Shown: one piece after another, positions 1-6,000 of the stretch
How the letters are laid out: every line of letters begins with the position of its first letter
Numbering within the stretch: position 1 is the first letter of the stretch
Source of the DNA: Fidelibacterota bacterium
GTDB lineage: Bacteria; Fidelibacterota; Marinisomatia; Marinisomatales; UBA2128
Assembly: GCA_046861645.1 (NCBI GenBank)
Contig: JBHHUM010000039.1
Coordinates: forward strand, 1-18,676
DNA length: 18,676 nucleotides
Direction of reading: 5' to 3'
Made by a program: the position numbers

Positions 1-3000
1 CTGTTCCACCACCCGGGCAATCAATCCTTCAGGATTAAAATCTGATGTGTCTACCAATTCCACCACTCCGGCAAGTGACTGAATTTACAAAGTTGTATTA
101 TGAAGTATTATGTAAAAAGTACAATGATAGAAAAACGACGAAATAAGATTCAAAATAAAGCCCTCAAATAGTGATGTACACAGCAAAAGTAATGTAGAAC
201 TGGATATATAAAACATTAATAATGAGGCAACAAGTTATAACTTCGTAACCATGTCATCTTTCCATCCATAATATCCATCACTATTTTTGAAAATGAAGAA
301 GTCCCGACAGACCGGATAAGTCTGATGATGTAAATAAACCGAGTCAATAGAGTTTTCTGTTTGCCGTCGGTTACTGATGAGTATACACGGGATTTCAGTA
401 TTGTTTTGCATGCAAAGTTGTCACTAATTATAGAGTAATTGTAGAAACTATTTGATATTTGTAAGCAACAGACCGTCCATTAGGAAGAAGACTAAATGAA
501 CATACTTTAGATAGATTAAATGGTCGTTGGGATAGGTTTTCATGGTTCGGACTTAAGCCTGTAACTGATAAGGGTAAATTGATAGAATCAACCATATCTC
601 CCTCGGCTAAGCAGCTGATAAGTACAATGGAAGCCTTATTAATTGAGGGATTAGAACCTCCTCAAAATAGACGACGTGGTGATGATTTTAGTGCAGTAGA
701 ATATTTACAAGCTGAGGATACCGATCTAAAGGATAAACAAACAAATGAGTTTATTTTAGAGCTATTGAGGAATAAACAGTAATAAATTTCCTGATTATCG
801 GGGATCACAGTCGGTGTTGGTGGTCTTATGTTGTGTTATATCGAAAATGTCTGAACCGTGATTTTCTTGATTAACTTGATAATACTGATTTTCTAATCAT
901 GTTAATCTTGACAATCCTACAAATCATGGTTCAGACCATGGCCATCCGCTCTTCCCCGTCAAGTTTCTCATATTTGCTTATCCATCCTCTCACACGACTT
1001 ATACCGTACGCCTCTTCCCAGGCGGAAACGATAGCATCCACCGGAATATCGGCAAAAGTGCCGTGGTATTCAAGGTACTCCATAAACTTCCGGTTATCCG
1101 AATCATAAGCGTGAAAGAGGGAATCTTCCCTCCCATTGAATTCCAGCGGAGCTACGTTGTGCTTTCTGCATAGTTCAACGTTAAAAGCCGGAGTGGCTCT
1201 TACCCATTTGCCTTCAAGATAAAACTCTACATATGCATGATAGACGAAAATATCAGCACCGAGAAATTCGATAAACTGCCGGGTAGCCAGATGATTCCGG
1301 ACATTAGCAAACCCAACTCGAGTTGGAATTTCGGCTGCCCGACCGACAGCACAGAGAAGTGACGCTTTACCAATACAGAATGCACGTCCACTATTCAGCA
1401 CATGACTGGCTCGATAGTGTTCCGGGAGATGGAACTGCAAGTACGGATTATACCTGATTCCATCACGAACAGCGTAGTAGAGACTGACAGCTTTCTCGAC
1501 TGGATTATCACTGACATCCTCTAAAATAGTGTTGGTATAGTTAATTATCTCACTGCTATCGCTGTCAATGATGGAAGTTGGTGAAAGGTATTTTCTGTCA
1601 ATATCAATTGTCATCTAATTATCTCGTAAGCAAATTTACAGGACTCGATCTGGTAGAATGTAGAATTCAAGTCAACTTGACGCAATAGTGAAAGTAAATT
1701 TATCGTAACTAACGCTTGAGTTACGATAGTACGATATTGTATATTGTCTTAGTATTCAGTAAGGAATATAATAAATATGTCAAATCCCATCAGCATCGGA
1801 CTATTCGGATTCGGCCGCATTGGTCGCAATATATTTCGTCTGGGTTACAACGATCCTCGATACGAATTTACCGCCATAAGTGACCTCGGGGGTCCTGAAT
1901 CCCTTCATTATCTCTTGATGCGAGACTCAGTATTTGGCCCCATAGATCATGATATTCATTTGGAGGGGAATTACCTTTGTTACAATGACCATAAAACCAG
2001 ACTGATCCCAGGTGGAAAACCTGGAACAGTCACTTGGGACGCTTTTGATATCGATTTAGTCATTGATGCAACTGGAGCCTACCGTCATAAGGAAGATCTC
2101 GATAAGCACATCGAAGCCGGAGCCAAACGCTTGATCGTATCTGTTCCGCCATTGGATCAGATTGATCGTATCGTGATACCTGGGATTAATGAAAATTCAA
2201 TTCAACTAGAGGATTACATTATTTCTACAACTTCCTCCACAACGCAAGTACTGGCTCTGATGTTGAAAATTCTAGATGAAGATTTTGGTGTCCAAAGAGG
2301 TATGATGACATCAATACATGCTTATACATCAGATCAACCCCTTGCCGATGCAGTACGTTCTGATTTGCGACGTAGCCGTTCCGCTGTAGAAAACATTATT
2401 CCTAATGAAACATGGGCGCCAGATTACGTCTCCCAAATCATGCCGGAGTTTGAAGACAAAATTTCTGGCATCGCCTTTAACGTTCCCGTACCGGATGGTT
2501 CTTGTGTTGATCTCACTACTGAACTAAGACAAATACCTTCTGTTGAGGAGGCAAATGCGTGTGTCAGCGCTGCTGCAAATAACCGCTATCAGCACTTGAT
2601 TGGGTATACTGAGGACCCCATTGTTTCCAGTGATGTCATTGGTCGGGAAGAAACAATGATTTTCGATGCCAAAGCAACCATGATCGCTTCAGGTAAAATG
2701 TTAAAGACACTTTGCTGGTATGATAATGGATGGGGTTTTGCTAAAAGAATCTTGGAGATGGCCGACCACTACCGGGAACTGGAGATTAGATCATGAATAT
2801 CGCTATTAACGGTTTCGGTAGAATCGGACGAAGTGTTTTCAGAATTCTCAATCTAAATAAAGACTACCGTATCGTTGCTATTAATGATCTTACCCCCTCT
2901 GATGCCCTTACTTACCTGCTCAAGTACGATACTGTCATGGGGCGTCTTGAAGGAAAAGCAGAGCTTGAAGGTGATATTCTTCGCACTGAAAATCACACTG

Positions 3001-6000
3001 TGAAAATGCTTTCCGAAAGTAAACCATCTGAATTACCATGGACAGCGATGGGTATAGACATTGTCATTGAGGCTACCGGTGTGTTTCGTACCAGAGAGAA
3101 ACTTTCTCCTCACCTTGAAGCAGGAGCAAAGAGAGTTATCTTAACTGTTCCAGCTAAGGATGAGATCGATTATACAGTAGTTATAGGTGTCAATGATAAA
3201 GGGTTAACACCCCAGGATCGCATCATTTCAAATGCCAGTTGTACTACCAACTGCCTGGCTCCTATGGCTAAAGTACTGAACGATTCCTTTGGAATAGATT
3301 ATGGAGTAATCAATACTATTCATGCTTATACCAATGATCAACGTCTTGCTGATGTACCTCATACTGATTGGCGACGGAGTCGCGCTGCTGCTGAAAATGT
3401 CATACCTACAACTACGGGTGCTGCCCGTGCAGTAGGTAAAGTTTTACCTGAATTAGATGGCAAATTGGATGGAATAGCCATGCGAGTTCCTGTACCAGAT
3501 GGTTCAGTAGTTGACTTTGTTGTCCGTCTGGAACAAGATGTTACAACAAAGCAGGTTAATGAAGCCGTCAAAGAGGCCTCGAATTCTATTCAACTCGAGC
3601 GTATTTTAGAATTTTCCACTCTACCCGTTGTCTCCACTGATATAATAGGAAACCCACACTCTTCAATATTTGACGCTCCCTTTACTAAAGTAATACAGGG
3701 AAATCTGGTTAAAACCCTAAACTGGTATGATAATGAATGGGGATATTCCAACCGTGTCGTAGACCTTATTGGAATCCTGGCTGATATGGATTAACTCCTT
3801 GTTCTCTTAATTTTCCTGTAAAATCTCATTATAGATGGAATTGCGATATTTTTATAAGTATTTATAATTGATAATATAATCGAATAGCTGATTAAAAAAT
3901 CAATCTACAGTTGAGACATAGACCGGCTTACCCAACAGTTCTCCCTCAAGTTGGATGGGGACAGTAAACCAGAGTATCCTGTTATAGCTAACCACTTCCT
4001 TAACTTATTAAGGTTCAAAATATTGACTATAGAATTTAGGAAAGATTTGAGGCGTGGACCGGATTCGAACCGGTGCATCGCGGTTTTGCAGACCGCTCCC
4101 TTAGCCACTTGGGTACCACGCCTAATGATCTGAATTTAACTGTTTTTTCATCCCTATTCAAATTGGAATCTGACTATTATTGTTGACCTCCATTATTAAG
4201 TACTCTAACTTCAAATAAAACTGGGACCTCAATGAGCAGTATTAGGACTTTATTACTAATCGTAACATTAGTTTGGGCACAAGATGTTTCACCTGACGAA
4301 CGGGGTTATATCGTTAGAATTGGAGACAGTGTACCAGATTTCGAGTTCTATCATGTTAATGGAAAGTTAGCCAGACTTTCAGATTATTTGGGTACGCCTG
4401 TTATGCTCCAGTTTACGGCTTCATGGTGTTCAGTCTGTCGGGAAGAGATGCCACATATTGAAAAGGAAATCTGGCGCCGTTTCAAGGATCAAGGTCTCAT
4501 AGTAATTGGTGTTGATCGTGATGAACCTCTGGAAATCGTAAAAGATTTTGCTAAAGAAATGAACATCACTTATCCTTTGGTATTAGATCCTGGAGCTGAA
4601 ATATTTGGTCTATTTGCCAGTAAAGAGAGTGGTGTAACCAGGAATGTTTTGATTGATCGTCACGGAAAAATAGTCTTTCTAACCCGATTATTTGAGGAAG
4701 AGGAATTCCATTCGCTGGTCGAGAAGATAGGGGAGTTGTTTTTGCCATCAAACCAATGATAGTATTCAAAATCTAAAATAGTAATATCTCATGCTTTTTA
4801 TCTTCTTTCTCAACCTTGCATTCTTAACACAATGACCGTAAACTTTTCCCAATGAAAAATACAAATATAGCCCTGATAATAACCTTTCTACTATTGACCA
4901 GTACAGCTGCTAGCTGCAGTAGTGAAAGTTCTGGAGCACCTAAAAAGAGTGCAGGTGAAAATACTTCAGAAACAGTTTCAGATAAATCGAACTTAAGTGG
5001 AAAGGCTACCCTCATTGTCACCGGAAATGTACATGGTCAACTCGACCCCTGTGGCTGAAAACGCAATCCTTCTGGCGGTCTGTCGAGAAAAGCATATTAT
5101 GTAACTTCATTAAAAGAGAGTGGCTTGAATCCTCTTATCATGGATGCCGGAGATCTCTTCTTTGCCAAAACTACTGTAACCGGAATCGCCGGTGAAAAGG
5201 CTATACTTCAGGCTAAAACCATCGTCGATGGTTTTAACATAATTGGTTGCGATGCTATCAATATTGGAGCTAAAGATTTTGCCCAGGGACTCGATTTCCT
5301 GCAGGAATTGGAGACAATGTCATCATTCCCTTTCCTATCAGCAAATATTGTTGAAGAATCAACCAGTGAACTGGTCTTTAAAGAATACGAAATAGTGGAA
5401 AGAGAAGGATTCCGCTTTGGAATAGTCGGATTAGTTGGGAGTCTATCCAACATTACTCGAGGATCTTTAACGACTCTCAACTTCATCCAACGAGGTAAAG
5501 AAGTATTAGAAGATCTTGAAGAAAATTCTGATTATCAGATAGTACTTTTTAATGGTACTGTAGAGCAGGCAAATACGATTAAGGATTCCTTAACTAAAGC
5601 AGAGTTTATTTTTATCAGCGGTGATACTCGGAATCCGACCAGATCAAGTGGAAAGGTTGAGTCAGGGACTTTAATGAAGAAACTTGGCAAGCAGGGTAAA
5701 TCTCTTGGTGTAGTAACAATTGATATAAAAAAAGTTGGCGAACCACTACGGGATCTAACCAGTCTTTCCAACCGGAAGAAATTTCTAACTCGACAACTTA
5801 ATCGTTATAATAAAAAAGATCCTAAAAAGACTCTCGAAGAAATATATGCCCAAGACGAGCGTATGCTCGATCGCATTTCTACCATGAAGACGGAGCTGGA
5901 AAACATAACAGAAGAATTATTAGTAGAAGGAAACACCGTTCGCTTTGATTTTGTTCCTATGAGTAAAAACATCGGTGATAATATGTTGCTGCTCAGTATG

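What a model noticed while it worked through the whole genome (the two positions that open the first line are those of the whole stretch)
1777..3794. Conserved catalytically dead GAPDH paralog translationally coupled to gapA across Marinimicrobia
g02141 is a full-length class I GAPDH paralog in which the catalytic Cys is Ser/Ala/Thr, the phosphate-binding TTG loop is replaced and the substrate Arg is Asn, while the NAD-binding motif and the tetramer S-loop are kept. It always sits directly upstream of an intact gap, overlapping its start, which points to a pseudo-enzyme subunit or regulator of GAPDH.
Evidence so far: Present in 34 of 41 order genomes and in other classes. In 37 of 37 loci the pair is adjacent in the same order, the first lacking Cys (SSTTQ/ATTNA type) and the second with ASCTTN. 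120 of 120 closest homologues lack the Cys. Stop/start overlap ATGA here. Paper searches 90-92 found nothing.
(Added by a program. Inside this text positions count along the whole contig: contig position 1 is position 1 of the stretch shown here. "Call 12" and the like, gene names such as g00115 and contig names such as C1 are that model's own, and its searches are not shown. The text may have been shortened before it was handed on; [...] marks where a part breaks off. The agent that wrote the report below was given it as the finding of a first reader that could run no searches.)

Follow-up and report, generated by a model that had tools for sequence, protein, structure and literature searches.

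The report
Non-catalytic partner gene of bacterial GAPDH
Directly in front of a normal GAPDH gene lies a well-preserved sister gene that has lost the residues for the reaction but kept those that hold GAPDH subunits together, so this textbook glycolytic enzyme is probably built from two different proteins in these bacteria, which has not yet been shown directly.

Summary
Confirmed. 1777-2796 ("GapX") is a full-length class I GAPDH paralog (Cys149→Ser, Arg231→Asn, Gly209→Trp). It overlaps an intact gap (2793-3794) by ATGA. In 169 of 169 distinct full-length pairs, under 12 phylum labels and including two cultured Halieaceae, GapX lies directly upstream. It is under purifying selection (median dN/dS 0.054). 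A motif search aimed at the intact partner found GapX in 74 of 74 evaluable contigs.

Corrections: Cys loss is not the hallmark (15 of 169 keep it); Arg231 loss is (0 of 169 keep it). The pair is not phylum-wide, and this genome also has a class II GAPDH-like gene.

Published tetramer-contact residues are almost invariant in GapX. At the Q interface each partner has relaxed the opposite half. Best reading (0.68): a non-catalytic subunit of a GapA/GapX heteromer. Binding is not shown, and tree-aware co-variation gave no support. One genus fuses an HTH-like domain to GapX.

No description was found in 10 paper searches. This scan noted the pair before in other genomes.

The parts
1761..1765 (+). 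Shine-Dalgarno-like AAGGA, 11 nt before the GapX start
   Evidence: read from the sequence; function not tested
1777..2796 (+). GapX: 339-aa class I GAPDH paralog without GAPDH catalytic residues (Ser154 for Cys149 at 2236-2238, Trp213 for Gly209 at 2413-2415, Asn235 for Arg231 at 2479-2481, Gly318 for Glu314)
2781..2784 (+). GGAG inside the end of gapX, 8 nt before the gap start
   Evidence: read from the sequence; function not tested
2793..2796 (+). ATGA stop/start overlap; 95 of 169 pairs overlap by 4 nt and 35 by 1 nt
2793..3794 (+). Intact class I GAPDH (333 aa) of the clade found with GapX; signature LTVP, QRLADVPH, Met for His50

Best explanation
gapX-gap is an old two-gene unit that encodes a heteromeric class I GAPDH. 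SHOWN: GapX has the GAPDH fold, lacks the substrate-phosphate Arg and (mostly) the nucleophile, keeps the tetramer-contact residues, is under purifying selection, and is inherited together with one particular clade of intact gap. INFERRED: the two genes arose by duplication in a common ancestor; translational coupling makes them in about equal amounts; GapX fills subunit positions in a mixed tetramer (most simply GapA2-GapX2) with catalysis only in GapA; the small Q interface has become a GapA-GapX contact, so that GapA has come to depend on its partner. SPECULATIVE (about even odds, given the heteromer): GapX also tunes GapA through its remnant pocket (Ser148, Thr150, His176, Thr179, Asn231). 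This would be useful because these genomes carry a second GAPDH-type enzyme that may run the gluconeogenic direction.
For: (1) Loss of chemistry in 55 diverse GapX (P0002 numbering): Cys150 5/55, Arg231 0/55, Gly209 2/55, Thr206 2/55, Glu315 0/55; all 55/55 in the partners. Position 149 takes 8 different residues and His176 is Lys or Asp in 5 of 169, so no single new nucleophile is conserved. (2) Inter-subunit contacts listed for Leptospira GAPDH (PMC10318897, supplement legends; mapped by residue spacing) are kept in GapX: Arg194, Arg197, Asp241, Ser281, Asp283, Asp294, Asn202, Arg13 all 55/55; Asp187 54/55; Tyr41 53/55. (3) Reciprocal relaxation at the Q interface (published pairs Tyr42-Asp279, Asn284-Ser48, Arg52-Asp285): position 277 is acidic in 49/55 GapX and 50/54 lone GAPDHs but 19/55 partners, the top-ranked of 333 columns for GapX being more conserved than its partner; segment 44-52 has gaps in 22/55 GapX and 0/55 partners. 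(4) Linkage: 169/169 distinct pairs in the order gapX-gap on one strand, 130 overlapping by 1 or 4 nt; otherwise variable neighbours. A DNA motif from the intact partner found GapX in 74/74 evaluable contigs (80 loci with flanks: 4 cut, 2 duplicates). (5) Trees: GapX is one side of a branch (SH-aLRT 99); paired gaps are one side against 22 lone gaps (99.8); 28 of 52 splits are shared between the two gene trees versus 0.28 after shuffling. (6) Median dN/dS 0.054 (GapX) vs 0.045 (partner) in 20 of 38 close pairs with unsaturated dS. (7) Where the pair is missing, both genes are missing or a lone gap of another clade stands in.
Against: No interaction, expression or activity data. Conserved interface residues would equally fit a GapX homotetramer, and several (Arg194, Asp294, Asp241) may also be needed for folding. 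Co-variation between partner position 277 and GapX position 45 is the top MI-APC pair (z 6.8) but fails when the tree is taken into account: 0 of 3 independent pairs go the same way, and co-substitution z is 1.8, rank 3623 of 65780. Tyr41 is kept in both proteins, so the Q asymmetry is partial. Ser148 (55/55), His176 (53/55), Thr179 (52/55), Thr150 (50/55) and the new Asn231 (52/55) are conserved, which fits ligand binding or another activity as well. 15 of 169 GapX keep the Cys-His pair. Congruent trees are expected for any two tightly linked genes.
Confidence: 0.68

Rival explanations
1. GapX is an enzyme in its own right with different chemistry, for example NAD-dependent oxidation of a hydrated aldehyde or an alcohol with His176 as base, co-expressed with gap because it acts on a related metabolite.
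For: Ser148, Thr150, His176, Thr179 and the Rossmann glycines are conserved, and Asn231 is nearly fixed at 165/169. Recalled, not found: a Cys149Ala GAPDH mutant was reported to oxidise the gem-diol.
Against: The 206-212 loop and position 149 vary freely; His176 is lost in 5/169, Arg10 in 24/169 and Asn313 in 20/169. No shared pathway genes nearby. It would not explain why the partner gap clade was not seen alone or the relaxed position 277 in the partner.
Confidence: 0.12
2. GapX is a separate sensor or regulator (own oligomer, binding NAD(H), a sugar phosphate or nucleic acid) that controls expression of the operon rather than joining the enzyme.
For: In one genus GapX carries a conserved ~83-aa N-terminal extension that resembles Cro/C1 HTH domains (atlas score 0.93; 34% identity over 58 aa to the N-terminus of a 248-aa protein in L147; conserved across 49 sequences).
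Against: The fusion was found in 1 of 151 genomes of the order, Pfam does not detect it, and it is absent from this window's protein. Regulators are seldom translationally coupled 1:1 to their target (own knowledge).
Confidence: 0.1
3. GapX binds GapA only transiently, as an assembly chaperone or a conditional inhibitor (a CP12-like role played by a dead paralog), and the working enzyme is GapA4.
For: Fits the linkage, conserved contacts and loss of chemistry; a second GAPDH-type gene in the same genomes gives a reason to switch GapA off.
Against: The partner's relaxed position 277 and its clade-specific changes (Met for His50 in 53/55, Ala185 in 55/55) suggest a permanently changed interface.
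Confidence: 0.08
4. A decaying duplicate or an assembly artefact.
For: GapX evolves faster than its partner (mean column entropy 1.78 vs 1.08 bits).
Against: dN/dS 0.054, intact reading frames in 169 distinct pairs under 12 phylum labels, confident fold.
Confidence: 0.02

Closest known systems
Class I phosphorylating GAPDH (GapA, EC 1.2.1.12; TIGR01534; PDB 1GD1, and its Cys149Ser/Ala mutants 1NQ5, 1NPT)
   Same: Fold (TM 0.95), two Pfam domains, about 39% identity, GFGRIGR, His176, tetramer-contact residues.
   Different: GapX lacks Cys149 here, and Arg231, Gly209 and Glu314 family-wide; it is below the TIGR01534 cut-off; in every locus with the downstream DNA present it lies upstream of an intact gap. 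Known bacterial enzymes are homotetramers (PMC5385343, PMC10318897, passages).
Chloroplast A2B2 GAPDH (GapA/GapB) and CP12 regulation (recalled; PDB titles seen)
   Same: A GAPDH tetramer built from two paralogous subunits, or regulated by a bound protein.
   Different: GapB is catalytically active and regulates through a C-terminal extension with cysteines (recalled). GapX is catalytically degenerate, has no such tail, and is bacterial and operon-coupled.
Erythrose-4-phosphate dehydrogenase (Epd; TIGR01532, PRK13535)
   Same: A GAPDH paralog with an altered phosphate loop.
   Different: Epd keeps Cys and Arg231 (an Epd-like copy in L374 and L375 does); GapX scores 237 vs cut-off 530.
Pseudo-enzyme subunits of other metabolic enzymes: plant PDX1.2, trypanosome AdoMetDC prozyme, HisZ, ClpR (all recalled)
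   Same: A dead paralog kept as a subunit or regulator of its active sibling; this is what GapX most likely works like.
   Different: Different folds; no GAPDH example turned up in my searches.

Membership tests
Class I GAPDH superfamily (fold) | Gp_dh_N plus Gp_dh_C domains and the GAPDH fold | tested here: met
   PF00044 E 7e-23, PF02800 E 4e-47; TM 0.95 to 1GD1
Active phosphorylating GAPDH (TIGR01534) | Catalytic Cys149 | tested here: not met
   Ser154 here; Cys in 15 of 169 family members
Active phosphorylating GAPDH (TIGR01534) | Ps/Pi-site Arg231 and Thr208-Gly209 loop (sites as in PMC5385343, passages) | tested here: not met
   Asn235 and Trp213 here; Arg 0 of 169, Gly209 6 of 169
Active phosphorylating GAPDH (TIGR01534) | His176, Thr179, Asp181, Ser148, Thr150 | tested here: met
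   All present in this protein; His 164 of 169
Active phosphorylating GAPDH (TIGR01534) | Score above the curated cut-off | tested here: not met
   308.6 vs 367.2 bits; the downstream gap passes with 423.1
Active phosphorylating GAPDH (TIGR01534) | NAD-binding residues (GxGxxG, Arg10, Asp32, Asn313) | tested here: inconclusive
   Kept here, but Asn6, Asn31, Glu94 and Glu314 equivalents are changed, and Arg10 or Asn313 is lost in some lineages; binding not measured
Erythrose-4-phosphate dehydrogenase | Cys149 and Arg231 kept; score above cut-off | tested here: not met
Heteromeric GAPDH (A2B2 type) | Two paralogous subunits in one tetramer | not testable with these tools
Heteromeric GAPDH (A2B2 type) | Second subunit active, with a redox-regulated C-terminal extension | tested here: not met
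   GapX ends a few residues after the GAPDH C-terminal helix and lacks the catalytic residues
Pseudo-enzyme subunit or regulator | Catalytic residues lost, fold and selection kept | tested here: met
Pseudo-enzyme subunit or regulator | Binds or modulates the active paralog | not testable with these tools
   Needs biochemistry

The most novel reading that the evidence does not exclude
A bacterial lineage of GAPDH, spread over about a dozen phyla, has become an obligate heteromer with a dedicated pseudo-enzyme subunit. The two halves of a once symmetric interface were divided between the partners. The dead subunit's remnant pocket (Ser148, His176, Thr179, Asn231) is an effector site that throttles the glycolytic enzyme where a class II or other GAPDH runs gluconeogenesis. 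In one marine genus an HTH fused to the dead subunit turns the enzyme complex into a DNA-binding metabolic sensor.
Probability: 0.3. Interest if true: 0.85.

Novelty: new variant of a known kind. Interest (0 to 1): 0.66.

Why it matters
Bacterial class I GAPDH is the textbook homotetramer. A conserved non-catalytic subunit would be a new architecture, and perhaps a new control point, for a central enzyme in abundant marine and sediment bacteria. It would also be a natural case of a homomer turning into a heteromer by reciprocal loss at an interface, with intermediate states (Cys kept, Arg231 lost) still alive. Databases name these proteins 'type I glyceraldehyde-3-phosphate dehydrogenase', so metabolic reconstructions count them as enzymes. 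The pair occurs in cultured strains (Parahaliea aestuarii S2-26, Pseudohaliea rubra DSM 19751), so it can be tested now.

Tried and rejected
RNA runs: none was listed. Co-variation across the proposed Q contact: Fisher p 0.02 without the tree, no support with it; the top MI pair is therefore not counted as evidence. The AU test of paired gaps as one clade with GapX included did not finish; the test without GapX needed none. Promoter scan: 6 sites vs 7.2 in shuffles, so nothing claimed. Phage collection: 27 records matched, all under 60% identity, best 37%; not read further. 'The pair is the only GAPDH of the genome', suggested, is wrong: a class II-like gene lies at C113:45391-46449. 'Cys loss defines the family' rejected. 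'The HTH fusion is ancestral or general' rejected. Pfam found no HTH in the extension. Rows dropped: of 178 tandem loci (with repeats) plus the later loci, only distinct, full-length, N-free pairs were counted (169); 18 of 38 close pairs were dropped from dN/dS for dS outside 0.1-1.5; L140 (long branch) was left out; 43 of 123 stretches had no flanks. Paper searches listed no description of such a paralog; the library lacks most subscription papers, and bioRxiv supplements were closed.
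Full report
1. Observation. The window has two GAPDH-family ORFs, 1777-2796 (339 aa, here GapX) and 2793-3794 (333 aa), overlapping by ATGA. They are 42% identical. The second is an ordinary class I GAPDH above the TIGR01534 cut-off; the first is below it. Against B. stearothermophilus GAPDH (alignment; residue numbers recalled) GapX has Cys149→Ser, Asn152→Gln, Gly209→Trp, Arg231→Asn and Glu314→Gly, and keeps Ser148, Thr150, His176, Thr179, Asp181, Arg195, Thr208 and Asn313. Arg231 belongs to both phosphate sites (PMC5385343, passages). The predicted structure is a complete GAPDH monomer (pLDDT 94.7; TM 0.95).

2. Close relatives. All 120 listed best homologues, this protein included, lack the Cys and have Asn231. 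All 80 loci hold GapX; 78 have the intact gap right behind it and 2 end at the contig edge. In 200 other genomes of the phylum, 58 of 79 from the order have a GapX-level match; 16 of the 21 without belong to one streamlined genus with no class I match at all. 21 of 25 genomes from other orders of the class and 23 of 24 of family f22 have two or more matches; the 20 such loci I read were all gapX-gap. Families f23, f24 and f26-f30 mostly have a single match; the 13 loci read were canonical lone gaps.

3. Wider range and the true hallmark. A profile search and a scan with distant members, plus the motif scan, gave 169 distinct full-length pairs. NCBI labels among them: Fidelibacterota (Marinisomatota), Acidobacteriota, Actinomycetota, Bacteroidota, Pseudomonadota, Thermodesulfobacteriota, Eiseniibacteriota, Planctomycetota, Bdellovibrionota, Lentisphaerota, Latescibacterota and Fibrobacterota; 37 have no phylum label, and single-genome labels may be mis-bins. 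In all 169 the degenerate gene is upstream on the same strand; 95 overlap by 4 nt and 35 by 1 nt. Position 149 is Ser 93, Ala 41, Cys 15, Asn 12, other 8; position 231 is Asn 165 and never Arg; His176 is kept in 164, Arg10 in 145, Asn313 in 149. The family is thus defined by loss of the substrate-phosphate Arg, with the nucleophile and parts of the NAD site lost in several lineages (4 changes of Cys state on a 55-taxon tree). Median dN/dS is 0.054 for GapX and 0.045 for its partner in 20 close pairs.

4. The partner is a special clade. GapX forms one side of a branch (SH-aLRT 99). Paired gaps form one side against 22 lone gaps (99.8), and lone gaps form one side against GapX plus paired gaps (99), as expected if the pair arose by one duplication; this is unrooted. 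The two gene trees share 28 of 52 splits (0.28 by chance). To ask whether the partner ever stands alone I scanned species genomes with a DNA pattern for its S-loop motif: of 80 loci with flanks, 74 distinct contigs have GapX, 4 are cut upstream, 2 are duplicates, and none lacks it. Two cultured Halieaceae carry the pair (L305, L306). Other neighbours vary; PPi-dependent phosphofructokinase, pyruvate kinase or a TrmB-like regulator lie nearby in some lineages.

5. What GapX keeps. The supplement of PMC10318897 (read whole) lists inter-subunit contacts of Leptospira GAPDH; I mapped them by residue spacing, not by an alignment. In 55 diverse GapX (P0002 numbering) the P-axis residues Arg194, Arg197, Asp241, Ser281, Asp283, Asp294 and Asn202 are invariant, and the R-axis pair Arg13/Asp187 is kept in 55 and 54; catalytic Cys150, Gly209 and Arg231 are kept in 5, 2 and 0. 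At the Q axis, the acid at 277 is kept in 49 of 55 GapX and 50 of 54 lone GAPDHs but only 19 of 55 partners, while segment 44-52 is gapped in 22 of 55 GapX and in no partner. Each protein has relaxed the opposite half of a symmetric contact, which is what a mixed interface predicts. Against this: Tyr41 is kept in both, and co-variation between the two patches, though the top MI pair, is not supported once the tree is used.

6. Metabolic setting. The genome also encodes a class II GAPDH-like protein (C113:45391-46449). The query from a relative scores below the NCBIfam cut-off (109.9 vs 185), so its function is an inference. It is found in 155 of 201 phylum genomes, including every sampled genome of the pair-bearing families and 16 of 16 of the streamlined genus without class I gap; 2 of 2 of those tested keep PGK. 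In 5 pair-bearing genomes outside the phylum, 2 have the class II-like gene and the other 3 have further GAPDH-family copies. In Haloferax the class II enzyme is the gluconeogenic one (PMC11023807, passages). The pair may therefore be the dispensable, catabolic enzyme, for which a control subunit would make sense; this step is speculation.

7. HTH fusion. 45 of the 119 other homologues are longer than 400 aa; those read have an N-terminal extension of about 83 aa, conserved across 49 sequences. It resembles Cro/C1 HTH domains, but is undetected by Pfam and was found fused in 1 of 151 genomes of the order. It is a lineage-specific addition, absent here.

8. Mechanism and rivals. Best: GapX is a non-catalytic subunit of a mixed GAPDH oligomer (0.68). 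Rivals: a different enzyme (0.12), a stand-alone sensor (0.10), a transient chaperone or inhibitor (0.08), decay (0.02). The conserved Ser148, Thr150, His176, Thr179 and Asn231 keep a ligand-binding role open. No binding, expression or activity data could be obtained.

9. Novelty. It works like known pseudo-enzyme subunits (recalled examples) and like chloroplast A2B2 GAPDH in being heteromeric, but it is a member of neither, and it fails the tests for an active GAPDH or Epd. Ten searches (listings and abstract starts only, except the four papers named here and PMC9918977, passages) showed no description; most subscription papers are not covered. Earlier notes of this scan report the same pair in other genomes, one marked 'part of it fell' without detail; they are not independent support. 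Verdict: real, conserved, apparently undescribed; new variant of a known kind; interest 0.66.

Noticed in passing
L139:1492-2490, L141:1492-2496, L142 (families f21, f25): A second, independent Cys-less GAPDH (Cys149→Gly, Arg231 kept, Gly209→Trp or His), not next to a gap, and branching among the lone gaps of these families. Dead GAPDH paralogs arose at least twice in this phylum.
   Followed up: partly
G000:C113:45391-46449; L242:871-1944: A class II (archaeal-type) GAPDH-like gene in 155 of 201 Marinisomatota genomes, and the only GAPDH-like gene found in the two streamlined genomes searched with the Pfam family.
   Followed up: partly
L002, L006, L008, L010, L013, upstream of 3743: HTH-fused GapX genes share an upstream TAGTATAAT(T/A)TAGTATA-like motif, in two cases with an inverted TATACTA copy; a possible promoter or operator, in AT-rich DNA, not tested against chance.
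   Followed up: no
window 4852-6129 (+): UshA-like protein with an in-frame TGA in a PCGU motif; it reads as one 425-aa frame with a signal-like N-terminus if TGA is Sec, and resembles NF041198 UshA-like (seleno)protein, below its cut-off.
   Followed up: partly
window 4049-4122 (-), 7114-7187 (+), 7207-7280 (+): tRNA-Cys just downstream of the pair; tRNA-Gly and tRNA-Ala further on.
   Followed up: no
L138 (G063:C3:6495-9069): A second gapX-gap pair in one genome that branches with another order's pairs: transfer of the whole unit or bin contamination.
   Followed up: no
window 8454-11140 (-): Two adjacent ORFs of about 455 aa that look like a TldD/PmbA pair (recalled resemblance).
   Followed up: no
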